Below, piece after piece: positions 1-19,337 of a DNA stretch of 64,000 bases; positions within the stretch are counted from its first letter, which is position 1; every line of letters begins with the position of its first letter. The DNA comes from Myxococcota bacterium (GTDB lineage Bacteria > Myxococcota_A > UBA9042 > PHBI01 > JAWLBL01). Under the pieces are notes generated by a model that saw only the letters and a program-made list of their open reading frames with translations, did not search any database and was not told the DNA's origin. Position numbers and translations under genes: made by a program. The stretch lies in assembly GCA_041687695.1 (NCBI GenBank), contig JAWLBL010000001.1, positions 1 to 64,000 of the forward strand, written 5' to 3'.

Positions 1-1
1 A

Positions 2-214
2 ACGAACGCGGGACGGGACACCCGAGAGGGGCTCATCCCAGCCCAACTACCGGGAAACGACCGCGAGACAAACCCGGGACGGGGAGCCGGGACAGGACAG
101 GGGGGGATCACCGTCCAGACGCCAGACGGTTCGATCACCAGTGCGAACGCCGCAGTGCTCACCCTGACCGGGACCATCACGAGCTGCTCCAGCAAAGTGA
201 AGGCGGTGGACTGA
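2..214 (+). CDS. 3' end of a phage gene, probably baseplate spike/gp45-like (partial)
   Basis: Frame open from the window edge to ...GTITSCSSKVKAVD*. Its TGA overlaps the next ATG, and it lies directly before a gp46-like gene. Confidence 0.5.
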   Translation, partial: TNAGRDTREGLIPAQLPGNDRETNPGRGAGTGQGGITVQTPDGSITSANAAVLTLTGTITSCSSKVKAVD

Positions 215-1650
215 TGCCGACGACCATCCACATCAGCCCGACCGGCAACGACACGACCGGCGACGGCTCCGAGCTGAACCCTTACGCCACGTTCGCCAAG
301 GCGCTCTCTGTCGCAGTAGCTGGGGCGACTGCTGCCTACGGCTCGGGCGACACCATCCAAGCCGCTGCTGGCGTCTACAGCGAAGGGCGCGTGGGGAACG
401 TGGCCAAGCAGGGGATCACGCTTCGGGGCGACCCTGCGGGGGGCACGATCATCGACGCCAGCGGGTCGTTGAACGACGGCTTGAGCTGGTACCACTTCTG
501 GGACTTGTACGACCTGACCGTCTTCGGCGCACCCAGCAACGGCTTCGAGGCCCAAAGCTCCGGCCGAACCGCGCGGCTCACGCGCTGCGTCTCGCACTCG
601 AACGGGCAGGTCGGCATCTGGACGGCGAGCGCCCCCAACGTCGAGGTCTACCACTGCACCGTCTTCGACAACGGGGAGCGGGGTATCGACGGCGGGACGG
701 GCACCGGGTTCCGGGTCAGCCACGCCCTCGTCTACGACAACGGCCGGGACGGCATCTACACGACTGCCGCCGACTCCGTGGTCGAGTTCAGCACTGTGGC
801 CTTCAACAGCGTCGGCGTGACGGGCGGGACCTACGCCATCTACGCGGGCACGGTGCGGTCGTGCATCGCCTTCGGGAACGAGATCGCCTACGGCATCCGG
901 GCCGGGACCTACGACCACTGCCTCGCCTACGGGTCGCACACGACGAGCAACTACTACTCGACGCCGGACGCCGACTCGCTGGAAGACGATCCACTCTTCG
1001 TTGACGCCGACGCGCGGGACTTCCACTTGACGGCTTCGAGCCCGGCCGTCTGGACGGGTGCGGCTTCCACCCTGAACGTCACGACCGACCTTGAGGGCAC
1101 CCCGTTGGCCCCTGTGCCGAGCATGGGCGTCTACGAGTACGTTTCGCCCGATCGCGTCGTCGCCAACCCGCCCTCGTTCGCGCTGACCGTCACCTTGGAT
1201 GGCGAACGGGTCGGGGTCGATCCCTTCTCCGAAGCCCTCTCGCCGCTCGACTTCGCCGTCCTCTCGTCTCTGCTCACCGATAGGAGGGCGGAACCTGAAG
1301 ACACCCTCCCGGTGGACGACGGGGACAGGCGCGGATGGTGGGGTGACGGGTTCGGCACCGACGGCGCCGAGGGTGCCCCAGAGCCCTTCGGCTCCCGCCT
1401 CTGGTTGCTCCATCGGACGACCGCCACCCAGGCGACGGCGACCTTGGCCAGGCTCTACGCCGAAGAGGCGCTGGGCTGGCTCGTTACCGATGGGCTGGTC
1501 GAATCCGTCAGCGTCACCTCGGAGGTCGGAGCCGGAGCCATCATCACCTTGGAGGTATCGTATAAAGCAGCCCGCTCGGCCGAAGAGCCGCGCGTCATGC
1601 GGCTTCTAGTCGACGATCAGTCGAGCACGGGCTCGGGAGTGCACTGGTGA
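214..1650 (+). CDS. Right-handed parallel beta-helix domain fused to a C-terminal Mu gp46-like baseplate domain
   Basis: N-terminus ISPTGNDTTGDGS..NPYAT..KA and repeated DNG..GI coils. C-terminus SLLTDRRA..D..RRGWWGD...GSRLWLL...A..YAEEAL.WL is gp46-like. Confidence 0.8.
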   Translation: MPTTIHISPTGNDTTGDGSELNPYATFAKALSVAVAGATAAYGSGDTIQAAAGVYSEGRVGNVAKQGITLRGDPAGGTIIDASGSLNDGLSWYHFWDLYDLTVFGAPSNGFEAQSSGRTARLTRCVSHSNGQVGIWTASAPNVEVYHCTVFDNGERGIDGGTGTGFRVSHALVYDNGRDGIYTTAADSVVEFSTVAFNSVGVTGGTYAIYAGTVRSCIAFGNEIAYGIRAGTYDHCLAYGSHTTSNYYSTPDADSLEDDPLFVDADARDFHLTASSPAVWTGAASTLNVTTDLEGTPLAPVPSMGVYEYVSPDRVVANPPSFALTVTLDGERVGVDPFSEALSPLDFAVLSSLLTDRRAEPEDTLPVDDGDRRGWWGDGFGTDGAEGAPEPFGSRLWLLHRTTATQATATLARLYAEEALGWLVTDGLVESVSVTSEVGAGAIITLEVSYKAARSAEEPRVMRLLVDDQSSTGSGVHW

Positions 1651-1653
1651 CGC

Positions 1654-2739
1654 ATGGCTGACACAGGTTTCACACGACCAACCCTGAGCGAGCTGGTCAC
1701 CAGGACTTCGCAGGATCTCGAAAACCGCGTCGACGGCTTGGACGCGCGCTTCAAAGGCACCTGGTCGTGGGCTCTGGCTCGGGTGGTGGCCGCAGGCCAC
1801 TACCTACAGCACCAGCACCTGTCCTGGATCGCCAAGCAGGTACTTCCTGACACCGCTGAAGCCGCCTCCCTCGACCGGCACGCGGCCATCTGGGGGATCA
1901 CCCGCCGAGGGTCCGGCAGGGCCACGGGCAACGTCACCGTCAACGGAACCAACGGCAGCGAGATCCCCGTCGCCGCGCTTCTACAACGTGCCGATGGCAC
2001 CGAGTACCGCGTCACCGCCGACGGGGCCGGAACCATCGGCATGGGCGGAACCCTCACGGTCGAAGTCGAAGCGGTCGAGCCGGGCGAAGCTGGCAACGCC
2101 GACGAGGGCGTCGTCCTCACATTCGTGAGCCCGATCGCGGGCGTCACGTCGGCAACGACGGTGCAGGCGGGGGGCATCGTCGACGGCGTGGACGAAGAGA
2201 CCGACGACGCCTTGAGAGAGCGCATCCTGGCCCGGATCTCCGCGCCTCCGCAGGGTGGCTCAGAAGCCGACTACATCGCGTGGACTCGGGAGATCGCCGG
2301 TGTCGATGAGGTCTGGGTCGCGCCTGCGGCCGAAGGCGCCGGCACCGTCCGGGTCCGCTTCTCGATGAAGGTCGAGACGGACGACGACGACCTCGACCGC
2401 ATCCCCGGGTCGGCCAAGGTCGATGAAGTTCAGGCGCACCTGGATGAGGTCGCCCCGGTGACCTGCACGGTCTACGTGGCCGCGCCGACTGCGCAGGAGA
2501 TCGACTTTGAGGTTCAGGTCTTCCCGAACACCGCCGAGGTGCAGGCAGCGGTGACCGCCGAACTGAAGGCCCTCCTTCGTCGTGAAGGCGGACCCGGCAA
2601 GACCATCAAGTCGTCGGTCATCCGAGCGGCGATCAGCGCAGCCGAAGGCGAGCAGTACCACACGCTCGTCACCCCAGCCGGTGACATCACCTCGACGGCT
2701 TCTCAGCTCCCCGTCATGGGATCGGTGACGTTCTCCTGA
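1654..2739 (+). CDS. Baseplate J / Mu gp47 family protein
   Basis: FTRPTL.EL, Q.LPDTA, A.G.V...GT.G, G.D.E.D..LR.R, P.QGG...DY..W motifs. Confidence 0.92.
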   Translation: MADTGFTRPTLSELVTRTSQDLENRVDGLDARFKGTWSWALARVVAAGHYLQHQHLSWIAKQVLPDTAEAASLDRHAAIWGITRRGSGRATGNVTVNGTNGSEIPVAALLQRADGTEYRVTADGAGTIGMGGTLTVEVEAVEPGEAGNADEGVVLTFVSPIAGVTSATTVQAGGIVDGVDEETDDALRERILARISAPPQGGSEADYIAWTREIAGVDEVWVAPAAEGAGTVRVRFSMKVETDDDDLDRIPGSAKVDEVQAHLDEVAPVTCTVYVAAPTAQEIDFEVQVFPNTAEVQAAVTAELKALLRREGGPGKTIKSSVIRAAISAAEGEQYHTLVTPAGDITSTASQLPVMGSVTFS

Positions 2740-3275
2740 TGCTGACCCGCCTGACCGATAGCGAGTACCGCGACCAGCTCGCCCAGCTCCTTCCGAAGGG
2801 GAAGCTCTGGGAGCGCGTCCTTGACGGGCGCTTAGGGCAGGTTCTGCACGCCCTGGCCGACGAGTTCGCCCGGGTTCACGACCGGGCACAGGATGCGCTC
2901 ACAGAAGCCGACCCCCGCACCGCAGACGAGATGCTCGAAGGCTGGGAGCGTGTGGCCGGGCTCGACGGGGACGGGACCGACGACGAGCGCCGCGCCGTCC
3001 TGCACGCCCACCTGGTCGCCCGAGGGGGCCAGTCCTCTACCTATTACATAGGGCTCGCTGCGAACCTCGGGGTCGAGGTCACCATCGAGACCGTGACCCC
3101 GTTCCGGGTCGATGCGGCGACCGTCGAGACGCCCCTCTATGAAGATCCGTGGGCCTTCGTGTGGTGGGTCACCGGGCCGGCTACGACCAGCGCAACCGTT
3201 CAGGCGCAGGTCGAAGCCCTGGTCGAGCTGCACAAGCCGGCGCACACCATCGTCCACTTCGCCTGGACAGCCTGA
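2739..3275 (+). CDS. Mu gp48-like (YmfQ/DUF2313) baseplate protein
   Basis: Y..QL.QLLP.G..W, EADPRT..EML..WER..GL, GGQS..YY..LA, KPAHT motifs. Start overlaps the upstream stop. Confidence 0.9.
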   Translation: MLTRLTDSEYRDQLAQLLPKGKLWERVLDGRLGQVLHALADEFARVHDRAQDALTEADPRTADEMLEGWERVAGLDGDGTDDERRAVLHAHLVARGGQSSTYYIGLAANLGVEVTIETVTPFRVDAATVETPLYEDPWAFVWWVTGPATTSATVQAQVEALVELHKPAHTIVHFAWTA

Positions 3276-3287
3276 GGAGGCGACCCC

Positions 3288-4508
3288 ATGCAACGAATCC
3301 AGCACCCGTCCACTGTCGCCGTCCTCCCTGACATCACAGAGACCGGCGACTACGGCTTCTACACGCCAGGCGATCCCGAGACGGACACGCCTCCGACGAC
3401 GGTCACGGCGGCGGCCCTCAATAGGATCCAAGAGGAGTTGGTCAGTATCGTCGTCGGCGCGGGCTTGAGCCTCGATGCCGAGGACAACGGACAGATCTGG
3501 TCGGTCCTCTCACACATCCTCGGCATCGAGTCCGGCACCTCGTCCGTGACCGCATCGAACACGAACGACCGCGCCGTCCTCGTCTCGGACGCTTCGACTG
3601 CTGATGGCGACCACAGCGCGGCGGTGGCTTCGAGCACGGTGACCGCCCAGGGTGACTACTCGTTCGTGGCCGCAAGCGGGAACTTCGGGCACGCCGACGG
3701 CACCCGATCCGTCCTGCTGGCGAGCAACGGGGGCACGGTCGCCGCAACGAACGGTGCGGCCCTCGCCACCGTCGGGGCCGACGTGCAAGGCACCTCGTGC
3801 GCCGTCGTCGCCGCCAACGACTGCGGGACGGCATCGGGGACGAGCAACAACCTCGTCGTCGCCAGCCAGTACACGATCAACAACGTCAGCAACTCCATCG
3901 CGGGCGGCTACGCGGGCTCCGGCCCTGCGGCCACGGGCAACGTCACCTGGCGGATCGAGAGCCAGGGAGGCAACGCAGCCTTCTCGGGCACGATGACGGC
4001 GAACGGCGTGATCGACTCGGGCGCCGACTACGCCGAAGCGTTCCCGAACCTCGAGCCCGGGGCGATCCCCGTCGGGCGCCTGGTCGCGCTGGATGGTGAA
4101 GCCGTCCGCCTTGCTGGCGAAGGCGACGATGTGCTGGGCGTCGTGTCCCCCGCACCTGCGGTCCTCGGCGACGCGCCCCAGCACTGGCACGGGCGGTACC
4201 TGCGCGACGAGTTCGGCGGGTACGTCCTCGACGAGCAGGGGCAGAAGGTCGTGAACCCCGACTACGACCCCGCTCGTCCCTACGTCCCGCGTCAGCAGCG
4301 CCCGACCGAATGGACGGTGGTGGGTCTGCTCGGAAAGCTGTTCATCGCCGTCGATCACACCGTGGCGGCTGGCGAGTACGTCCGCCCCGGCCCCGAAGGC
4401 GGGCTGGGCACCGTGTCCGAGGAGGCGACCAGGGTGAGGGCGATGAAGGTCACGTCACCCTACGATGCCGCGCGCGGGTACGCGGTGGCGCGGTGCCTCG
4501 TCATCTAG
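3288..4508 (+). CDS. Tail fibre/spike with a C-terminal peptidase G2-like intramolecular chaperone
   Basis: N-terminal fibre motif (LN.IQEEL..IV..AGL), Ser/Ala-rich repeats, ADYAE cleavage motif, Y.PR..R..EW..VGLLG. GAGGAGG RBS. Confidence 0.85.
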   Translation: MQRIQHPSTVAVLPDITETGDYGFYTPGDPETDTPPTTVTAAALNRIQEELVSIVVGAGLSLDAEDNGQIWSVLSHILGIESGTSSVTASNTNDRAVLVSDASTADGDHSAAVASSTVTAQGDYSFVAASGNFGHADGTRSVLLASNGGTVAATNGAALATVGADVQGTSCAVVAANDCGTASGTSNNLVVASQYTINNVSNSIAGGYAGSGPAATGNVTWRIESQGGNAAFSGTMTANGVIDSGADYAEAFPNLEPGAIPVGRLVALDGEAVRLAGEGDDVLGVVSPAPAVLGDAPQHWHGRYLRDEFGGYVLDEQGQKVVNPDYDPARPYVPRQQRPTEWTVVGLLGKLFIAVDHTVAAGEYVRPGPEGGLGTVSEEATRVRAMKVTSPYDAARGYAVARCLVI

Positions 4509-4948
4509 CGAGCCTGGATCTTCAGTCCCCATCCATCGTTGCACCGAGCCTCGGTGAAGCTGAACTCGATCAGGGTGCCGGGCGCGAACGGCCCGGGAAG
4601 CGAGACCGTGCTGTCGATGACGTTCCCCGTGTCCTCCTTGATGGCGAACGCTTCGAGAAGCATGGCTTCGGGGTGCACCTCAAGGATCTCGTAGGTCATG
4701 ATGCAGCCCCTCTTCCCGACCAGGGGGCGCATGCCGCGCAGCTTCACATCGAGCTTTGAGGGCACCCGATCGAGCGAACCTGATGGAGCCTCTGGCGAAC
4801 TGGCCGGCTCCTTGTCGGGGTCGATGCACTGGAGCTTGAGGTTCTCCCACTGAGCCCGCTTCCCCTCGGGGCAGTGGTCGCCGAACACCACGTACGCGGT
4901 TGCTCCGGCGAGGATGCACAGCACTACAAGTAGCCCGCCGATGTTCAT
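4505..4948 (-). CDS. Hypothetical protein with N-terminal membrane anchor (possible moron)
   Basis: Hydrophobic N-terminus and GGGGAG RBS; convergent with the tail fibre gene. Confidence 0.65.
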   Translation of the reverse strand: MNIGGLLVVLCILAGATAYVVFGDHCPEGKRAQWENLKLQCIDPDKEPASSPEAPSGSLDRVPSKLDVKLRGMRPLVGKRGCIMTYEILEVHPEAMLLEAFAIKEDTGNVIDSTVSLPGPFAPGTLIEFSFTEARCNDGWGLKIQAR

Positions 4949-5016
4949 CGGCTCCCCCTATGACGTGTCCCGGTCACGGGGAAGCGACCACGGATGCGGC
5001 CCGAGGTCAACCCGAG

Positions 5017-5649
5017 CTACTTCGCCTTGCTCTTCGCGGTCTCGATCGCCTTCTTGAGCCCGGCATCGAGGTTCGTGGTGAACCGCTCGCGCGTGACCCT
5101 CAGGACGGTCTCCTTCAAGGGCCAGCGCTTGGGCACCTTGACCCTCTTCCTCAACCAATAGAGTAGCTCCAGGCGCTGGTTGTCTCCCTTCCCCTTCATC
5201 CTCCAGATCCCCTTCGCCTTCTTCTTCCCCTTGGGTCCGTCGAGGACGACGACGCCCTTACGCTTCAAGAAGGCGCCGGGCCAGCGGCTCTTCGAGGTCT
5301 TGGCGTCGAGGGTCACGCGGGGCTTACCGGAGCCGACGGCAGGGACCGCAACGTCCTTGCCCTTGGACTTCTTCGGCCCGCCCTTCGCCTGCCGGGCCAT
5401 GTATTCCTCTAGGCTGCCCACCTTGGCGGTCAGGGTCTTCTTCGTGGCGCGCTCGATCCTGATCCCCTTCGCGCTCCAGTTGCTCCTGATCGTGAAGTGC
5501 TGGGGCAACTCCTCGCGCAAGGTCGCCTGCGCGTCCTTCGCCGTCGCCGTGAGGGCGCTGGCGATCCCGAACGGCACCTGTCGGCTGAACTCGCCGAGCT
5601 GCTTCTCCAGCGCTTTCCAATCCCCTGAGACCTTGATCACGTTGGCCAC
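5017..5649 (-). CDS. Basic phage protein, virion morphogenesis (gpZ-like) type
   Basis: GTG start after GGGAGG. KQ..F..A.ALT.TA.D..., IERATK..L.A.V, Q..GG.K pattern typical of this phage family. Confidence 0.65.
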   Translation of the reverse strand: MANVIKVSGDWKALEKQLGEFSRQVPFGIASALTATAKDAQATLREELPQHFTIRSNWSAKGIRIERATKKTLTAKVGSLEEYMARQAKGGPKKSKGKDVAVPAVGSGKPRVTLDAKTSKSRWPGAFLKRKGVVVLDGPKGKKKAKGIWRMKGKGDNQRLELLYWLRKRVKVPKRWPLKETVLRVTRERFTTNLDAGLKKAIETAKSKAK

Positions 5650-5657
5650 CCTCCCCC

Positions 5658-5712
5658 GATGGAACACGTGATTCTTTAGTAGAAGAAGCTCTAAGGAATC
5701 ACGTGTTCCATC
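5658..5712. repeat. Perfect 17-bp inverted repeat (22 bp with one mismatch) around an 11-nt spacer
   Basis: GATGGAACACGTGATTC (5658-5674) and GAATCACGTGTTCCATC (5696-5712). Confidence 0.95.
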
Positions 5713-5797
5713 CTGTGCCCTGACCCCTAAAGGGTACCTCCCCAGGCGGCCCGGTCGCGCCCGTAGGCTGGCGTGCCCCAAGGGTACTCTTTGGGTC

Positions 5798-6577
5798 ATG
5801 CATGACCTCGCCGACCGCCTCGCACGCCTCGCTGATGATCTAGCTTGGATCGCCGATGATCTACGTAGAGGAAGCTCCTCCAAGGCTCCTCTAGCGGTCG
5901 CTGTGCGCCAGGGCGAACGGCTCAAGTCCTTCGCACGCCCGGCCGGGCAGGCGATCGACGAGATCGTTGTGCACGAGTCGGTGAGCGCGTCCGTCGAGTC
6001 GACCCTCACCACGCTGCGCTCGAAGGGCTACGGCGTTCACCTGATCGTCTCGCCGACGGGTGAGGTGACCCAGCACGCGCCCCTCGTCGACGAGTGCGCC
6101 CACGCAGGCGTCGCCGACACGCACCCACCCAGCACGCACAACGATCGCAGCGTCGCCGTCGAGCTGGTCAGCCCCTACTACGAGCCCGAGCAGCTCGAAC
6201 CGGGGCAAGTGGTCATCGACGCCAGGTGGGCTCACCGAGGGCGCTACCTCATGCCCAGCCTGCCGGCCCTGGAAGCGGTCTGGCGGGCCATCCAGTGGGT
6301 TCGGGAGCAGGTGCCGACCATCCCCCTCGCGTTCCCCTCGGTGGACGCTCAGGGCCGGTACCGCTGGGGACGTGACCCTCGTCACAACGTCGGCGGTGGG
6401 GTCAGGGCGCACGCAGCGTGGAACCACAGCGATGGGCACGTCCCGACCTTCTACATCCTGCTCCGCTCCTTGGGCTTTGAAGCCGACGACGCCTACGCGG
6501 AGACGATCCGCGTCGCGTCCTCCGTCCCGGGTTCACGGCTCACGCCGGTGCCCTCTCCGCAGAAGGGGGCCGCATGA
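5798..6577 (+). CDS. N-acetylmuramoyl-L-alanine amidase (endolysin)
   Basis: IVVHES, YGVHLIV...GEV.Q, AHAG, N.RS..VE and late H...D motifs of Amidase_2. Confidence 0.85.
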   Translation: MHDLADRLARLADDLAWIADDLRRGSSSKAPLAVAVRQGERLKSFARPAGQAIDEIVVHESVSASVESTLTTLRSKGYGVHLIVSPTGEVTQHAPLVDECAHAGVADTHPPSTHNDRSVAVELVSPYYEPEQLEPGQVVIDARWAHRGRYLMPSLPALEAVWRAIQWVREQVPTIPLAFPSVDAQGRYRWGRDPRHNVGGGVRAHAAWNHSDGHVPTFYILLRSLGFEADDAYAETIRVASSVPGSRLTPVPSPQKGAA

Positions 6578-6882
6578 GCGACCAGAACTTCCTGACCCAA
6601 CAGCTCCAGCGCCTCAACGACAAACTCGACGAGGTCTTCAGATCCCTCGCTGACATCGGCGCACGCCTGGCCCGGCTCGAAGAAGGGCGTGACCAAGCGA
6701 AGGCGGTTGAAGCTCGGGTTACCGCGCTCGAAGCCCGAGTCACCAGCGTTGAAGGCGAGGTCAAGGAAGGCAAGGCGCGCGACCGGCTGATGATGGCCGG
6801 GCTGGTCGCCCTCGGCTCCCTGCTCGGCATCGGAGGTTCGGAAGCCGTCAAGGCGATCGCCAAGGTGCTGGGGGCCGGCTGA
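6574..6882 (+). CDS. Coiled-coil protein with C-terminal TM segment (holin-like)
   Basis: ATGA overlap with the amidase gene; RVTALE heptads followed by a hydrophobic tail. Confidence 0.65.
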   Translation: MSDQNFLTQQLQRLNDKLDEVFRSLADIGARLARLEEGRDQAKAVEARVTALEARVTSVEGEVKEGKARDRLMMAGLVALGSLLGIGGSEAVKAIAKVLGAG

Positions 6883-7229
6883 TGAAGCCCTGGATCGTTG
6901 CGCTCGCCCTCGGGCTGTCCGCGTGCTCTGTCGACCTACAGCGCCGGCCCGATCCCCTGTTGCCGATCGACCTGGGCACCCACCCATGCGTGGTCACCAT
7001 CACGACCGGGCATACGACCGTCACCCTCGACCTCGGTGAGGTCGGCGCGGTCGCCGTGCGCGAGGCAGCGGGCCGGGCCGTGGACGCTATCCAAGGCGCA
7101 GGGGTTGCGGTGCCTCCCGTCCTTGTTCAGCTCGCCGCTGGGCTGGCTCAGGCGGGCGTCGACGAAGGGCTATGCCGGGCGTTCGCGTACGTGGCTGACC
7201 GGATCGATGGAGTGCGGGTTGATCGGTGA
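6882..7229 (+). CDS. Phage lipoprotein (possible lysis accessory)
   Basis: MKPWIVALALGLSAC lipobox; coupled to the upstream gene. Confidence 0.7.
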   Translation: MKPWIVALALGLSACSVDLQRRPDPLLPIDLGTHPCVVTITTGHTTVTLDLGEVGAVAVREAAGRAVDAIQGAGVAVPPVLVQLAAGLAQAGVDEGLCRAFAYVADRIDGVRVDR

Positions 7230-7782
7230 CCTGGCTCTACGTCCCGCCCCCTTCAACGTGCTCTCCCTGTGCAGCGGCTACGACGGACTCGGACTCGGAA
7301 TCAAGCTCGCCGTCCCCACCGCCCGTACCGTCGCTCACGTGGAGAGGGAAGCCTATGCAGCCGCGTGCCTGGTCAGCCGCATGGCGGAAGGGTGGCTGGA
7401 TCAGGCGCCTGTCTGGGACGACGTGCTCACCTTCGACGGCGCAGCGTGGCGTGGAGCAGTGGATTGCATCACTGCGGGGTTCCCCTGCCAACCCTGGAGC
7501 CGGGCAGGAGACCGCCTCGGCGCCGACGACGAGCGGTGGATCTGGCCGGCGATCGCCCGCATCTGTGACGAGGCGCTACCGCCGAGCGGTGCACCGGAAC
7601 CCGGGTACGTCTTCTTGGAGAACGTTGCTGGGCTCGCAGACGGCGGCGGGCTCGACCTCGTCCTCAGCGACCTTGCGCGCCTCGGGTTCGATGCGGCGTG
7701 GGATCTGTTTCGATCGGAAGACGTTGGGGCCACGCACGCCAGGGCACGGATCTTCATATTGGGAAGGCGCGGTGGTAGTTGA
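7207..7782 (+). CDS. C5 DNA methyltransferase, N-terminal polypeptide (motifs I-VIII)
   Basis: LSLCSGYDG (I), AGFPCQPWS (IV), FLENV (VI), H.RARIF (VIII). Start is ATG 7207 or TTG 7219 after GGAG. Confidence 0.85.
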   Translation: MECGLIGDLALRPAPFNVLSLCSGYDGLGLGIKLAVPTARTVAHVEREAYAAACLVSRMAEGWLDQAPVWDDVLTFDGAAWRGAVDCITAGFPCQPWSRAGDRLGADDERWIWPAIARICDEALPPSGAPEPGYVFLENVAGLADGGGLDLVLSDLARLGFDAAWDLFRSEDVGATHARARIFILGRRGGS

Positions 7783-8170
7783 TCACGGAGCCCGACCTCG
7801 ATTGGGGTGGCGTCGACGACATCTGGGCGGGCGAGGTCTGGCTCTGCAACGGCGACCTGCTCGACGTGGTGACCCCTTCGGGCGACGTGGAGCCCTTCCC
7901 GATCGAGTGGGCGACGCTGCTCAACGGCACGGGGCGTTGGCCGACGCCGACCTGCAACGACGCGCGGAATGCGGGCGGCCCGGCTCAGCGACGGCGACGG
8001 ACCTGGGCGGTCAACGCAGCCATCGGCGGGCCATTGGCGCCGGAGTTCGTCGAGTGGATGATGGGGACCCCACAAGGTTGGACCGGCTCAGGATGCTCGG
8101 AAACGGAGTGGACCCGCTGGCTGCGGGCTTCGCGTTCGCAACTCTCTCGGCTCGCATGGATGGGCGCTGA
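7226..8170 (+). CDS. Overlapping +1-frame ORF ending in the C5-MTase motif X-like segment
   Basis: GTG start overlaps the lipoprotein stop (GTGA). Ends RLDRLRMLGNGVDPLAA. Confidence 0.65.
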   Translation: MTWLYVPPPSTCSPCAAATTDSDSESSSPSPPPVPSLTWRGKPMQPRAWSAAWRKGGWIRRLSGTTCSPSTAQRGVEQWIASLRGSPANPGAGQETASAPTTSGGSGRRSPASVTRRYRRAVHRNPGTSSWRTLLGSQTAAGSTSSSATLRASGSMRRGICFDRKTLGPRTPGHGSSYWEGAVVVDHGARPRLGWRRRHLGGRGLALQRRPARRGDPFGRRGALPDRVGDAAQRHGALADADLQRRAECGRPGSATATDLGGQRSHRRAIGAGVRRVDDGDPTRLDRLRMLGNGVDPLAAGFAFATLSARMDGR

Positions 8171-8225
8171 GGCCGACCTGAGCGTATCACCCGTCACCAA
8201 ACAGAGTTCACACCGGGGAAGCTAG
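7779..8225 (+). CDS. Third-frame ORF carrying the C5-MTase motif IX-like segment
   Basis: TTG start overlaps the TGA of 7207-7782. Contains WPTP and LAPEFVEWMMGTPQGWT. Confidence 0.65.
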   Translation: MITEPDLDWGGVDDIWAGEVWLCNGDLLDVVTPSGDVEPFPIEWATLLNGTGRWPTPTCNDARNAGGPAQRRRRTWAVNAAIGGPLAPEFVEWMMGTPQGWTGSGCSETEWTRWLRASRSQLSRLAWMGAEADLSVSPVTKQSSHRGS

Positions 8226-8237
8226 GCGCGCACCTGG

Positions 8238-9524
8238 CTAGCTCCTACTCTCTGGAACCTCATCCCTCGGCTCAAGTGGTTCTTCCGTTTCGTCGTCACT
8301 TGGAACTGCTTCGGCCGAGTACTCGGCCAGGATTGCGGGGGGAGGGAGGTTCAACGGCGGGAGGGCTCGCTCAAGACCGCCAACACGGTCTTGCCATTCG
8401 CGTATCGCCTGGGCTGAGGCTAACGGAATGGAGAGACCTGAAGTTGCTCCCGTCAGGGCTTTGATTCCCGGGAAAGCCAATGAAGCGCTCAAGGCTTCTA
8501 TCGGACGGGTGATCTCGTCCATCGACCGTATGGCTTCCTGGACTCGACGGGCACCAGGAGACTCCAAGTACTGTGAGACCGCCGCCATCTTGGCGGCTAG
8601 CCCAGAGTCGAGTCCGGCTGAGAACATCCTCACCTTACGAGCGTTGGCTTCCCACCGCGCTTGCGCCCTAGACATACGTTCGGCACGTTCTAGCTGTCTC
8701 GCCACCAAGCCCAACTGAACCGAACCTTGATCGTGCAGTCTCTGTGGAGCCTCCGGCACGCGAGCCGCTTGGCTGGCTGGCTCCAACACCCTTCGAGCCA
8801 ATGCGAGTACATCGTCGAGAGTCTGAACGCGGTCGCGTCTCTCCAGCCGCGTCGTCTCCAGCACAAACTGGTTCCATGGTCCGTCAGGAGCCCTAGGGAT
8901 GTTTGGGGCCAGCTTCACACCCCGACACCATGCTACCACGCGACCCAACCCGAAGATGTCGGTCCGAACATCGGCGTCATGAGCATCGTCCCAGCACTCC
9001 GGCGCTGCGAACTGGTCGGTTCCGTACATCCCCCCTACAACGGTTAGCGCTGCTGTAGTCTGACCTGGTGCCTTCCTCGCGAGACCGAAGTCTGAAACGA
9101 CCCAGCGTCCCCGGCCGTCTTCTTCGATCCGAAGAACGTTTCCCGGCGTCACGTCTCGGTGCGCGCCGTGGACCGAGTGGAGGGCCTCTAGCGCGCTCAC
9201 GACGTGCTCTACCACCTCCAACAGTTCCGAGTCCGTGAGTCCTTGCCCGACATCATGAAGCGAATAGGCAGCCCACGGCATCGTGTACCACAGAGGCTGG
9301 TCGCCGCTTTCCTCATCGACATCTAGAACGGGGACGATGTTTGGATGCGACAGAGATCTCAGCACTTCGATCTCGCGTCGGAACCGTGCCTTCGTCTGGG
9401 TGCCCAGCTTCGACTTCTTGAACGCCACGGTTCGGCCAGAAGCCTTGTGAAGCCCTCGATAGATCCGTGCCTGGCCTCCGACAACGTACTCGCGGGACAG
9501 TCGGTAGTCCTTCCTCGTCCCCAC
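8238..9524 (-). CDS. Hanks-type Ser/Thr protein kinase
   Basis: GGQARIY, VAFK, FRREIE, HRDVTPGN, DFGLA, APE, DIFGLG motifs. GAGGAG RBS. Confidence 0.92.
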   Translation of the reverse strand: MGTRKDYRLSREYVVGGQARIYRGLHKASGRTVAFKKSKLGTQTKARFRREIEVLRSLSHPNIVPVLDVDEESGDQPLWYTMPWAAYSLHDVGQGLTDSELLEVVEHVVSALEALHSVHGAHRDVTPGNVLRIEEDGRGRWVVSDFGLARKAPGQTTAALTVVGGMYGTDQFAAPECWDDAHDADVRTDIFGLGRVVAWCRGVKLAPNIPRAPDGPWNQFVLETTRLERRDRVQTLDDVLALARRVLEPASQAARVPEAPQRLHDQGSVQLGLVARQLERAERMSRAQARWEANARKVRMFSAGLDSGLAAKMAAVSQYLESPGARRVQEAIRSMDEITRPIEALSASLAFPGIKALTGATSGLSIPLASAQAIREWQDRVGGLERALPPLNLPPPAILAEYSAEAVPSDDETEEPLEPRDEVPESRS

Positions 9525-9545
9525 CTTCGTACTCCTCAGCTTGGT

Positions 9546-10442
9546 TCAGCTACCGACAGGGGAGCCGGTGTTCGCGATGGTTATCGTGGAGGCTTTCCCG
9601 AGCATGTAGGACACGAAGCCTGAGCACAGCACGAGCATGAACTGGGCGTCGTGAAGGTCGGGGTCCAGCTCGCCCTTGCTCGTATGTCGGATTCCCGTGT
9701 CCGAAGTCCATCCGTAGAGCTGGCTCATGCCGCCCAGGAAAGCACCGTGGGCCGGGAACCTGTCCTTGAGGCGCTTGATAGCGTCGCCCATCGTCACGGA
9801 CGGGTCGCCGAGCACGATCCGGCAGACGCCTTCGACCGCGCTGATGGACTCCTTGATCGAATTCGTGAAGTCCGGGTTGTCCCGATCGCTCAGGAGCGCC
9901 AGGGCGTTCCGCAGATGCTTCCGAACCTCGGCGAACTGGTCGGTAGCGGCGAGGGCGCCCTCCACCGCTTCAACGTCGATCGGTGAGGTGATCGTCGTGA
10001 TCTCGCCATCGATGAAGCGGTAGCCGGCCAGGTTAGCTTCAAGGACCTCGTTGACCTTCGCCTCGAACCGTTCGCCTATCTCACGGCGAACTTGGGGTTT
10101 GAGGTCGGACTCGTCCATGAAAGCAGCCCTACAGACCTCAAGGAAGTCATAGACCTCGTTCCACGGCGCCGTTTTCAAGATCCAGGCGCTGATCGCCTTC
10201 GTTGCTTCCTCGGTCCAGGTTGGAAACCCGTTCATGGGCAGACGTGCGATCTCACACCACCACGCCTCGGTGATCCGCCTCCCCAGCTCATGCCCCTTGA
10301 GCATAGGTCGTTGAGGATAGAAGGCTTCCCGGACAATGAAGTTCCACAGATCAGTGCGAAGCCCGTGGTCCGCCTGCTTGATCTGCACGTCTAGAACCGG
10401 CGTCAAGCCTTGCCGCTCTGAGAACGTCCCCTTTAACGCCAT
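9546..10442 (-). CDS. AbiJ N-terminal-domain-like protein with HEPN-like C-terminus
   Basis: FSER.G, LR..LWN, WNEVYDFLE, YRFI.G.I, NSIKESISAVE, LYGWTSD.GIRH pattern. Confidence 0.75.
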   Translation of the reverse strand: MALKGTFSERQGLTPVLDVQIKQADHGLRTDLWNFIVREAFYPQRPMLKGHELGRRITEAWWCEIARLPMNGFPTWTEEATKAISAWILKTAPWNEVYDFLEVCRAAFMDESDLKPQVRREIGERFEAKVNEVLEANLAGYRFIDGEITTITSPIDVEAVEGALAATDQFAEVRKHLRNALALLSDRDNPDFTNSIKESISAVEGVCRIVLGDPSVTMGDAIKRLKDRFPAHGAFLGGMSQLYGWTSDTGIRHTSKGELDPDLHDAQFMLVLCSGFVSYMLGKASTITIANTGSPVGS

Positions 10443-10536
10443 CGCCGCACCCCTCTCCACCTGTTCAGGTGGATCTGAGCACAACCAGGCATCCCATCGC
10501 AACACCCCTGACCGCTTCGGCTCGGTCGCTCCGATG

Positions 10537-16716: not shown

Positions 16717-18950
16717 GCTTCGAGCGCCTGCAGAAGTGGATCACCTACGGGGTGGTCGTCTTCGGGCTCTTGCCCCTGGCGCTGTCGGGCGAGATCCCGC
16801 CGCCGGTCCTGGTGCTGTCCTTCGGCGCCGTGCTGGCCAGCTGGTTCTACACGCCGCCACGCCAGCGCGGCCCGACCAGCGTCCGCGCCTGGAACTTCGT
16901 CACCGTGGCCGCCTTCGCCGTCCTGGCGCTGCTGGGCCAGATGAGCGGCAACTGGCTGCTGTACGCCATCCTCTTCGCCCTGTTCATGGTCATCACGCGC
17001 CTTTACGCCGGCCGCGGCGCGCGTGACCTCTTCCAGCTCTACGCGCTCAGCTTCGTCGCCGTCATCGCGGGCGCCGTGGTCAACCCGGCGTTCTCGTTCA
17101 TCTTCACCTTCCTCGGCTACGTGGTCCTGCTGACCTGGGCGCTCATCCTGCTGCACCTGCAGCGGGATCTAGAGGCCCTGGCCGCCGACGACGACGCGCC
17201 GGGCGAGAGCCGCGCCGAGGCCGGCCGCGTCTGGCAGGCGCGCAGCATCGTCACGCCCCGCTTCCTGTTGGGCACCAGCGGCCTCGCCCTGGGCGTCTTC
17301 ACCTGCAGCCTGGCCATCTTCTTCTTCTTCCCGCGCCTGGGGATGGGCTTCTTCTTCGGCCAGGGCCGCCAGGGCCAGCAGGTCTCGGGCTTCGCCGACC
17401 AGATAGAGCTGGGCCACTTCGGCACCATCAAGGACAACCTGCGGGTCGTCATGCGGGTCGAGCTGCCCGACGAGCCCGACGGCCGCCAGCCCGGCGGGCT
17501 GCGCCTGCGGGGCATCTCCTTCGACCACTACGACGGCCGGGTCTGGTCCAAGACCACCCGGCGCTCGGCCGAGCTGCCCCGCGGCTTCAAGGGGACCTGG
17601 CGCGTCCCCACGGCCGAGCTGCCGCGGCCCTACGACCAGCGCCTGAAGACCAAGCGCCTGGTCCAGGACGTCTACCTCGAGCCGCTGGACATGGACCAGC
17701 GCATGATCTTCGGCGAGCCGCGCCTGGCCGAGCTGAGCATCGACAACCCCAACCTCGACCGCTTGAAGCGCGACCGCACCCGCTTCCTCCAGGACGCCGC
17801 CGGCGACGTCTCGACCGACGGACGCACCGACACCGCCCTCAAGTACCGGGTCGAGTCGCTCAAGGTCCTCCCCGAGGGCGCCGTCCTGGCCCCGGCCCCC
17901 CCATCGCGCGGAGCGCAGGCCGACGCCGAGATCCCCAAGCCCATCGCCGATCTGTACCTGCAGCTGCCCGACACCCTCGACCCTCGCGTCGCCCAGCTGG
18001 CGGCCGAGGTCACCCGTGACGCCAGGACCCCCTGGGACAAGGCGCGCGCCATCGAGCGCCACCTGAGCCGCCAGTACACCTACTCGACCGAGGGCGGCCA
18101 CAGCCGCGACGCCCCGCTCGAGGACTTCCTGTTCAACCTGCGCCGCGGCCACTGCGAGTACTTCGCCAGCGCGATGGTCATCCTGCTGCGCACCCAGGGC
18201 ATCCCGGCCCGCCCGGCCAACGGCTTCCTCGGCGGCGCCTGGAACGAGTTCGGCCGCTACTACGCCGTCCGCCAGGCCGACGCCCACTCGTGGGTAGAGG
18301 CCTACTTCCCGCCCTACGGCTGGATGACCTTCGACCCCACCCCGGCCGGCGCGGCCCTGGTCCCCGACCCCACCGGCGCCTTCGCGGCCATCGACGAGTG
18401 GTTCGATAGCCTGCGCCTGTCCTGGTACAAGTGGGTGGTCGAGTACAACCTCGAGAAGCAGCTCGACTTCTTCCGCGAGGTCGGCGAGCTGCTCTCGGGC
18501 CTGCTGCCCACCCCCACCGGCGGCTCCTCGACCAGCCCCAAGGCCTGGAAGCAGGGCGTCGAGGACTGGGCCAACCGCACCACCACCTGGGTCGCCTTCG
18601 GCGTGCCCCTCGCCCTCCTGCTGGCCTGGCGCCTGGGCCTGCTCGCCGCCCTCCGCCGCCGCTGGCTCCTGTGGCGTCTGGCTCGCCTCGCCCCCCGCCC
18701 CGGCGGCCCGGCCGGCGATCTGTACCGCCAAATGCTGCGCCTGCTCGACCGCCAGGGCGTCGGCCGCCTGCCCACCGAGACCCCCCGCGAGCTGGCCACC
18801 CGCCTGACCGCCGCCACCTACCCCGCCGCCCCCGCCGTCGCGACCCTCACCGCCGCCTACGAGCACGCCCGCTACGCCGAGACCTCGCCCCCCGACCTCT
18901 CGACGCTCACCCAGGCCCTCGAGACCATCCGCACCGTGCGCCTGCGCTGA
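16713..18950 (+). CDS. TgpA-like membrane transglutaminase-domain protein
   Basis: Multiple TMs, GHCEYFASA, AHSWVE, FDPTP. GTGA overlap. Confidence 0.92.
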   Translation: MSFERLQKWITYGVVVFGLLPLALSGEIPPPVLVLSFGAVLASWFYTPPRQRGPTSVRAWNFVTVAAFAVLALLGQMSGNWLLYAILFALFMVITRLYAGRGARDLFQLYALSFVAVIAGAVVNPAFSFIFTFLGYVVLLTWALILLHLQRDLEALAADDDAPGESRAEAGRVWQARSIVTPRFLLGTSGLALGVFTCSLAIFFFFPRLGMGFFFGQGRQGQQVSGFADQIELGHFGTIKDNLRVVMRVELPDEPDGRQPGGLRLRGISFDHYDGRVWSKTTRRSAELPRGFKGTWRVPTAELPRPYDQRLKTKRLVQDVYLEPLDMDQRMIFGEPRLAELSIDNPNLDRLKRDRTRFLQDAAGDVSTDGRTDTALKYRVESLKVLPEGAVLAPAPPSRGAQADAEIPKPIADLYLQLPDTLDPRVAQLAAEVTRDARTPWDKARAIERHLSRQYTYSTEGGHSRDAPLEDFLFNLRRGHCEYFASAMVILLRTQGIPARPANGFLGGAWNEFGRYYAVRQADAHSWVEAYFPPYGWMTFDPTPAGAALVPDPTGAFAAIDEWFDSLRLSWYKWVVEYNLEKQLDFFREVGELLSGLLPTPTGGSSTSPKAWKQGVEDWANRTTTWVAFGVPLALLLAWRLGLLAALRRRWLLWRLARLAPRPGGPAGDLYRQMLRLLDRQGVGRLPTETPRELATRLTAATYPAAPAVATLTAAYEHARYAETSPPDLSTLTQALETIRTVRLR

Positions 18951-19044
18951 CGTCGGCCGCCGCAGCCCTGCAACGCGAAGAGGGCCGGGCGCCGTAGCCA
19001 CGGGGCTCGCGCCGCCTCGTCGCCAGCGGACAGAGGTCGTGCCC

Positions 19045-19337
19045 GCCATGCCGGCGCTATGGGGTGCGCGGGTTCGGAGGAGGTGCGAACATCGCATAGC
19101 GCAGGCATGGCCTGCGCGGTCCACAGCCGCCTGCGGCGGCGGAACGACAGCCGGGCGCGTCGTTCGTCGTCGTGCCCCGCGCCGGCCGCGCCGGCGCTAT
19201 GGAGCGCGCCGGCCATGCCGGCGCTATGGAGTGCGCGCAGATGTAGAGGAGGTGCGAACATCGCACAGCGCAGGCATGGCCTGCGCGGTCCACAGCCGCC
19301 TGCGGCGGCGGAACGACAGCCGGGCGCGTCGTTCGTC
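19045..19337. repeat. Intergenic direct repeat (169-bp period) built from CAT/ATG-loop hairpins
   Basis: 19077-19168 matches 19246-19337 with one mismatch. Hairpins GCGCAGGC-ATG-GCCTGCGC and GCGCCGGC-CAT-GCCGGCGC. Confidence 0.9.

What the first reader, a model, noticed from the sequence alone, without database searches (positions are those of the whole stretch)
7759..7940. 178-nt TTGG-bounded segment whose removal repairs both overlapping MTase frames
Seen: TTGG occurs at 7759-7762 and 7937-7940. Deleting the 178 nt between them gives RIFIL-ADADLQ...LGNGV in one frame and GSSYW-PTPT...EWMMG in the other, i.e. the two-frame layout. The segment carries a stop for the main frame, a new TTG start and ~53 codons with GC-rich third positions. 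Inference: an insertion with a 4-bp duplication, an excisable or spliced element, or a matched-codon translational bypass (TTG/TTG, TGG/TGG; compare T4 gene 60). Any of these could act as a methylation switch. A 4-bp match alone could be chance.
Basis: partly seen in the sequence, partly recalled or inferred. Interest (0 to 1): 0.75.

Follow-up and report, generated by a model that had tools for sequence, protein, structure and literature searches.

The report
Barrel domain inserted in phage methylase
The stretch is an inserted coding piece, predicted to fold as a small protein barrel, inside a prophage DNA methylase gene read in two frames; a second copy in the same genome carries it in frame, so this copy likely just gained one base that breaks the gene and is probably not a switch.

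Summary
In detail: TTGG at 7759 and 7937, and removing 178 nt joins both frames. It is a true insertion: the junction restores the 25-nt spacing from motif VIII to the first WPTP box seen in 45 of 66 scored homologues.

The switch reading fails. A paralogue on the same contig (about 87% identical) carries the segment at 177 nt, with both frames open across it.

The segment codes protein in the second (beta) frame: 9 synonymous to 5 conservative changes there, 0 to 14 in the catalytic frame. It belongs to an unannotated, acidic family of about 55 residues, predicted as an SH3/Tudor/KOW-like barrel. The family occurs alone and fused to other methylase chains: 7 of 13 long carriers, four at this same position.

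The window copy has one extra base at 7776-7781 that cuts off the barrel's first strand; most likely a recent inactivating frameshift. A working three-chain enzyme (0.15) or an assembly error (0.10) remain open; no reads were examined.

The scan has found the two-frame layout often on other DNA; one word search found no note on the barrel.

The parts
7219..7782 (+). Alpha-N: catalytic chain of a C5 cytosine methyltransferase, motifs I-VIII (start TTG 7219 or ATG 7207), ended early by TGA 7780-7782
   Evidence: PF00145 E 3.7e-25; phrog_363 E 1.5e-44; ORF list
7226..8170 (+). ORF B (314 aa): N-half of the overlapping beta chain (MTWLYVP...GSSYWEGAVVV), which after the extra base runs into the alpha frame and ends with motif X (LGNGV, 8096-8110)
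   Evidence: phrog_1008 over aa 74-178 and phrog_32758 over aa 229-298
7779..8225 (+). ORF C (148 aa, TTG start overlapping the alpha stop as TTGA): truncated barrel, WPTP cassette (7938-7949) and motif IX-like EWMMG (8052-8066); the C-half of the beta chain
7760..7937 (+). Inserted segment: 177 nt (59 codons) in the paralogue, 178 nt here
   Evidence: spacing 25+178 against 25 in 45 of 66 homologues; paralogue alignment
7763..7919 (+). Coding sequence of the acidic SH3-like barrel (EGAVVV...NGDLLDVVTPSGDVEPF..EW) in the beta frame; first strand upstream of the frameshift, the rest in ORF C
   Evidence: independent HMM covers the paralogue segment from its second codon, iE 8e-11; AF2 pLDDT 81.6, five strands; fold matches
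7776..7781 (+). Site of the single extra base relative to the paralogue; creates the TGA stop and the TTG
7759..7762 (+). Left TTGG (Leu codon in alpha, Trp codon in beta); CTGG in the paralogue
7937..7940 (+). Right TTGG (Leu in alpha frame, Trp of WPTP in beta); CTGG in the paralogue
214..7229 (+). Context: Mu-like prophage tail and lysis genes (GP46, baseplate J, gp48, tail fibre, amidase) directly upstream of the methylase
   Evidence: Pfam, PHROGs

Best explanation
The segment is a coding insertion, 177 nt and in frame in the paralogue, that adds a predicted SH3-like barrel to the second (beta) chain of a two-frame prophage cytosine methylase, and the window copy likely carries a recent, inactivating one-base gain. 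Shown: the insertion point just before the first WPTP cassette, the in-frame paralogue, selection on the beta frame only, and the same domain in other methylase chains. Inferred: in the intact gene the alpha frame reads through the insert as unconstrained linker, while the beta chain folds barrel + recognition cassette + motif IX and pairs with alpha as in M.EcoHK31I. The barrel is acidic (net -12 in the paralogue), so it would more likely dock a protein partner than bind DNA, and it is not needed for catalysis, since most homologues lack it. The extra base stops alpha after motif VIII, diverts beta-N into the motif X frame and leaves the barrel without its first strand. With no dedicated restart signal, this most likely gives little or no enzyme.
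For: - Paralogue: 177 nt, both frames open across the segment.
- Over 52 gap-free codons: beta 9 synonymous / 5 non-synonymous (I-V, P-A, I-V, A-C, T-V); alpha 0 / 14.
- Spacing 25 nt in 45 of 66 homologues; 0 of 85 methylase homologue loci carry the domain.
- 19 of 28 HMM hits are true members. P0019 and P0025 carry it at the same place in beta chains; P0014 and P0026 carry it right before the PT box in single-chain methylases.
- An HMM built without the two genome copies starts at the segment's second codon. G3 and V6 of the first strand are at least 90% conserved and lie upstream of the extra base.
- The six codons before the break still read WEGAVV in both copies, so the shift is recent.
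- An IS end abuts the prophage genes at the contig start and truncates the paralogue.
Against: - No reads were examined, so the extra base is not verified.
- All conserved motifs survive across three ORFs, the TTG overlaps the stop (TTGA) behind an SD-like GCGGTG, and 6 of 66 homologues naturally stop alpha at this place. The allele may therefore work.
- Both flanks change together (TTGG/TTGG against CTGG/CTGG), as a maintained repeat would; I read this as two Leu-silent changes.
- The paralogue lacks its 5' half, so it is not an intact control.
- Fold scores are all under Z 8. The barrel's function is untested.
Confidence: 0.72

Rival explanations
1. The extra base is real and the enzyme still works as three chains: alpha-N (motifs I-VIII), the beta-N/motif X fusion, and ORF C (recognition cassette + motif IX) restarted at the TTG that overlaps the alpha stop. 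Only the barrel is lost.
For: TTGA stop/start overlap and SD-like GCGGTG upstream. Six of 66 homologues end alpha 15-20 codons after the motif VIII His, carry 4-14 stops before motif X, and restart an 87-88 aa motif X peptide at ATG behind GAAGGTG/GAGGGTG. [quoted passage not shown] The barrel is absent from 85 of 85 homologue loci, so it is dispensable.
Against: No second example of this split was found. The natural three-piece clade keeps beta whole, whereas here beta is cut between its conserved N-part (kept before the barrel even in single-chain P0014 and P0026) and the cassette. The TTG and TGA are automatic products of the extra base, and the break falls inside a selected domain.
Confidence: 0.15
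2. The extra base is an assembly or consensus error, and the real prophage gene carries the 177-nt insert in frame and is intact.
For: Codons on both sides of the break stay conserved in the beta frame; the catalytic motifs and the upstream tail genes are open; a single base explains everything.
Against: The assembly looks short-read (96-99 nt repeats at contig ends) and is 99.27% complete. The site is not a long homopolymer (sequence). Such indel errors are uncommon (own knowledge).
Confidence: 0.1
3. The segment is a programmed switch: excised from DNA, spliced from RNA, or skipped by ribosomes between matched codons, turning methylation on.
For: Removal at the TTGG pair restores the family spacing exactly, and the 4-bp flanks stay matched in the paralogue as CTGG/CTGG.
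Against: The paralogue needs no removal. The segment is selected as protein. No stop follows the take-off codon: alpha's stop is seven codons on and beta has none, while gene 60 has the stop at once and a 50-nt non-coding gap (PMC7026636 passages). RNA folding z is -1.29 and +0.47; no Rfam family; best terminal inverted match 8 and 9 of 15; only two copies, both at the same site of paralogous genes. P0019 and P0025 have no Trp-Trp repeat at the barrel's ends.
Confidence: 0.03

Closest known systems
M.EcoHK31I (E. coli HK31, YGGCCR), alpha/beta C5 methyltransferase; seen only through passages of PMC2836561 and PMC3404938
   Same: Beta chain encoded in another frame inside the alpha gene; alpha has motifs I-VIII and X, beta supplies motif IX.
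   Different: Here beta spans the whole gene, carries a WPTP cassette and an inserted SH3-like barrel; the papers place the TRD in alpha; the window copy is frameshifted into three ORFs; no activity is measured.
M.AquI and complementing fragments of M.BspRI, M.BsuRI, M.HhaI, M.SssI (passages of PMC3404938, PMC5944983)
   Same: A catalytic chain that ends after motif VIII can be completed in trans.
   Different: Those are two pieces with motifs IX and X together; here IX and X lie on different chains.
SH3-like small beta-barrels: PHF19 Tudor (6wau), Spt5/NusG KOW, PWWP, Hpy99I N-terminal barrel, YorP
   Same: Five-stranded barrel; Z 7.8 (rmsd 2.4, 51 aligned), 7.5, 7.2, 7.1 and 6.1.
   Different: No Pfam, PHROG or PDB sequence match; 10-26% identity among the listed fold matches; strongly acidic; no single family stands out.
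T4 gene 60 translational bypass (passages of PMC7026636)
   Same: Matched codons flank an interval whose skipping restores the frame.
   Different: No stop at take-off, interval 3.5 times longer and coding, two frames would have to be bypassed, and an in-frame paralogue exists.

Membership tests
Two-frame C5 methyltransferase (M.EcoHK31I type) | Motifs I-VIII in the alpha frame | tested here: met
   PF00145 E 3.7e-25; TIGR00675 66.6 bits, below its 100.65 cut-off for this half protein
Two-frame C5 methyltransferase (M.EcoHK31I type) | Motif IX in an overlapping second frame | tested here: met
   EWMMG at 8052-8066 in the frame overlapping motif X; phrog_1008 match; the label 'motif IX' is recalled, not from a call
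Two-frame C5 methyltransferase (M.EcoHK31I type) | Motif X on the same chain as motifs I-VIII | tested here: not met
   Window: alpha stops at 7782. In the paralogue motif VIII and X share one open frame, but its 5' half is missing
Two-frame C5 methyltransferase (M.EcoHK31I type) | Both chains needed for methylation | not testable with these tools
   needs an assay
T4 gene 60-type bypass | Matched take-off and landing codons | tested here: met
   TTG/TTG and TGG/TGG; CTG/CTG in the paralogue
T4 gene 60-type bypass | Stop codon directly after the take-off codon | tested here: not met
   alpha stop is the seventh codon after TTG; beta frame has no stop (definition)
T4 gene 60-type bypass | Non-coding gap of about 50 nt | tested here: not met
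   178 nt, under selection as protein
T4 gene 60-type bypass | Take-off stem-loop | tested here: inconclusive
   only whole-segment folds were run: z -1.29 and +0.47, different structures in the two copies
IS / MITE / excisable element | Terminal inverted repeats | tested here: not met
   best 8 and 9 of 15
IS / MITE / excisable element | Copies at unrelated target sites | tested here: not met
   two copies, both at the same site of paralogous genes
IS / MITE / excisable element | Target-site duplication | tested here: inconclusive
   4-bp match in both copies, but three of the four bases are Trp codons of the beta frame
Self-splicing intron | Rfam intron or ribozyme structure | tested here: not met
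   one chance hit, E 4.4, outside the segment, in 7000-8400
Intein | N-terminal Cys/Ser, C-terminal His-Asn, then Cys/Ser/Thr (recalled definition) | tested here: not met
   segment reads W/E...GTGR followed by W; 59 aa
SH3-like barrel fold (Tudor/KOW/PWWP class) | Five-stranded barrel with a short 3-10 turn before the last strand | tested here: met
   AF2 pLDDT 81.6, strands 5-8, 22-30, 33-37, 43-47, 51-53; the top VIA-align rows are Tudor, KOW, PWWP and related barrels
Tudor methyl-lysine readers | Aromatic cage | tested here: inconclusive
   judged only from the alignment: the third strand DVVTPSG lacks the aromatic residues I recall for Tudor cages; the model itself was not inspected

The most novel reading that the evidence does not exclude
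An unnamed acidic SH3-like barrel is a dedicated accessory domain of phage cytosine methylases, recruited more than once: inside the second-frame chain, at its N-terminus, in single-chain giants, and as a separate gene coupled to a methylase stop codon. It docks the enzyme to a phage or host partner. It shows that a whole folded domain can enter a double-coded gene through one frame while the other frame reads it as linker. Within this reading the window allele could also be a working three-chain enzyme (about 0.15 on its own).
Probability: 0.35. Interest if true: 0.65.

Novelty: new variant of a known kind. Interest (0 to 1): 0.4.

Why it matters
The proposed methylation switch is not there, which removes the main reason the finding was flagged. 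What remains is useful. It is a clean case of a folded domain inserted into a double-coded gene, selected in one frame and tolerated in the other. It also exposes an unannotated barrel family that keeps turning up attached to phage cytosine methylases. If the barrel is a docking module, it gives a direct handle on how orphan phage methylases are targeted or regulated, testable by deleting it and by pull-down. The homologue survey also turned up a clade with a natural three-piece layout (motif X on its own small gene).

Tried and rejected
- Word-index protein searches with the paralogue segment found nothing at near or longer lengths; only the full HMM scan found the family.
- No barrel relatives in IMG/VR with single queries (the loci have no barrel), in GTDB contigs, in GenBank phages, or in 17 order and 400 phylum genomes other than the window's own. 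One of two metagenome loci (L049) was a chance match.
- Nine of the 28 HMM hits (P0001-4, P0016, P0020-23) were set aside as repeats or weak matches.
- The single-sequence AF2 model was poor (pLDDT 57, best Z 3.8) and was replaced by the alignment model. Foldseek gave no match at E 0.001 or better in pdb or viral.
- Atlas neighbours (YorP, DUF4314, SH3-C_UBE2O at 0.86) are leads only.
- phrog_12600, the other frequent fusion partner, could not be shown to be a methylase: hhalign probability 0.1, no Pfam, no PDB match. One phage record labels a relative 'putative DNA methylase'. I do not count it as a methylase.
- Complex prediction of alpha-N with the barrel gave no verdict.
- Programmed frameshift or slippage at the break: no shifty codon pair or homopolymer run is evident in the sequence (judged by eye against recalled motifs). 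No promoter or terminator in 6800-8400.
- The barrel tree has 60 columns and long branches; only its starred branches were used.

Full report
Observation. TTGG stands at 7759-7762 and 7937-7940. Removing the 178 nt gives RIFIL-ADADLQ...LGNGV and GSSYW-PTPT...EWMMG. As it stands the locus has three ORFs. Alpha-N ends at TGA 7780-7782 and matches PF00145 at E 3.7e-25. ORF B, 7226-8170, starts as the overlapping beta chain and ends in motif X. ORF C, 7779-8225, starts at TTG and holds WPTP and EWMMG. The gene follows Mu-like tail and lysis genes. The 4-bp repeat is weak evidence alone: five frame-restoring 4-bp pairs lie near these ends, and 1293 of 2000 random prophage positions have one within 15 nt of both ends; an exact-position match occurs in 58 of 20000.

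It is a true insertion. I collected 85 homologous methylase loci; 66 could be scored and 19 could not. In 45 of the 66 the first [WL]PT box lies 25 nt after the motif VIII His codon, in 19 the first box lies at 28-49 nt, and in two my pattern missed a variant box at 25. The window has 25+178.

The decisive comparison is in the same genome. A second copy lies at C1:495619-496092 (-), 87% identical over 476 nt. It has the segment at 177 nt, with both frames open: alpha runs from RIFILG to LGNGV, and beta reads GSSFW-EGAVVVVTE...GTGR-WPTP...EWLMG. The window copy has one extra base at 7776-7781, which makes both the stop and the TTG. The paralogue's flanks are CTGG/CTGG. The matched change could suggest a maintained repeat, but both positions are silent Leu sites in alpha and the other three bases are Trp codons in beta. 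The paralogue's 5' half is replaced by the end of a multi-copy IS; the other end of apparently the same IS forms window 1-99. Its 5' half was not found elsewhere in the assembly.

The segment codes protein in one frame. Over 52 gap-free codons the copies differ by 9 synonymous and 5 mostly conservative changes in beta, and 0 and 14 in alpha; 12 of 19 differences are at beta third positions (binomial p 0.007). The flanks show the double constraint of the family: upstream alpha 6/2 and beta 0/6; downstream alpha 11/14 and beta 10/14.

The peptide belongs to a family. A metagenome locus (L048) has a 72-aa relative as a separate gene overlapping the stop of a single-chain C5 methylase. An HMM scan of 1.84 billion representatives gave 28 hits, 19 confirmed by a profile built without the two genome copies: 11 short free-standing proteins, one tandem pair, six methylase-chain fusions and one phrog_12600 fusion. 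A second search added five longer proteins. Of 13 long carriers, 7 are C5 methylase or beta chains, 4 are phrog_12600 and 2 are other. P0019 and P0025 (40% and 48% identical to the paralogue's beta stretch) carry it at the same place. P0014 and P0026 are single chains ordered I-IV-VI-VIII-X, a beta-N motif, barrel, PT box, IX. P0011, P0015 and P0043 carry it at the beta N-terminus. The tree groups the paralogue weakly with P0019 and P0025 (68/86), and starred branches force at least two changes of the methylase label. The query came from a methylase, so the enrichment is biased, and no DNA context was seen for the P proteins. None of the 85 homologue loci has the domain, so it is rare and dispensable.

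Fold. AF2 on the 21-row alignment gives pLDDT 81.6, pTM 0.67 and five strands. VIA-align ranks PHF19 Tudor (Z 7.8, rmsd 2.4, 51 aligned), DSIF KOW (7.5), a PWWP (7.2) and the Hpy99I barrel (7.1); none reaches Z 8, and Foldseek has no significant hit. This fixes the fold class, not a family or function. All 47 domain copies examined are net acidic, -1 to -13. The profile starts at the segment's second codon, and G3 and V6 are at least 90% conserved; both lie before the extra base.

Mechanism. Shown: insertion point, in-frame paralogue, beta-only selection, family, one-base difference. Inferred: in the intact gene alpha reads the insert as linker and beta gains an acidic barrel ahead of its recognition cassette, likely a protein-docking module; the chains pair as in M.EcoHK31I (passages of PMC2836561, and PMC3404938; the 1995 paper was not read). 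The extra base is recent, since WEGAVV is still intact before it, and most likely inactivates this copy (0.72).

Rivals. A working three-chain enzyme (0.15) has real support. All motifs survive, TTG overlaps the stop behind an SD-like GCGGTG, splits after motif VIII complement well, and 6 of 66 homologues naturally stop alpha here and restart a motif X peptide. But those keep beta whole. An assembly error (0.10) cannot be excluded without reads. A programmed switch (0.03) fails on the gene 60 features, RNA structure, terminal repeats and copy pattern.

Novelty. The two-frame layout is known from M.EcoHK31I and has been noted many times by this scan on other DNA. One word search of the scan's notes for the barrel found none. 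One literature search for an SH3 or Tudor insert in phage methylases listed two papers, neither relevant by title and abstract start; searches on split or overlapping methylases listed none on this insert. Subscription papers are not covered and no supplements were read. Verdict: a new variant of a known kind; the switch is not supported; interest 0.4.

Noticed in passing
L055, L059, L060, L062 (viral contigs), L091, L095 (genome contigs), about 2000-3600 (L095 about 570-2000): A clade of two-frame methylases with a natural three-piece layout: alpha stops 15-20 codons after the motif VIII His, 4-14 stops follow, and an 87-88 aa motif X peptide restarts at ATG behind GAAGGTG/GAGGGTG; beta was intact in the four read in full.
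   Followed up: partly
P0014 (835 aa) and P0026 (2010 aa): Large single-chain proteins in which the two-frame enzyme's parts are fused in the order I-VIII, X, beta-N motif, barrel, PT box, IX, among other domains (a PAPS-reductase-like domain in P0026).
   Followed up: partly
P0018, P0044, P0045, P0046: The barrel is fused at either end of phrog_12600, a phage family of unknown function with HPPC and EHP motifs; one relative is labelled putative DNA methylase in GenBank, but my comparison found no similarity to C5 methylases.
   Followed up: partly
window 1-99 and L046:12092-12190: Ends of a multi-copy IS: five contig ends carry each end; one copy interrupts an IS21-like istB gene (label recalled) with a 5-bp duplication, and three pairs of flanks do not match, suggesting rearrangements.
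   Followed up: partly
G000:C9:171474-176632 and G000:C19:130805-138655: Two further prophage-like regions share tail or lysis-module genes with the window's prophage at 32-52% protein identity.
   Followed up: no
L047 (G000:C10 about 17900-19100, minus strand): An intact single-chain C5 methylase, 26% identical to alpha-N, with no barrel and no open second frame.
   Followed up: partly
window 8238-10505, minus strand: A Ser/Thr kinase gene and an AbiJ N-terminal-domain gene at lower GC (0.62) directly after the prophage methylase; possibly a defence pair.
   Followed up: no
L096:2350-3700: A two-frame methylase homologue interrupted after motif IV by a long repeat-rich insert, resuming near motif X.
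   Followed up: no
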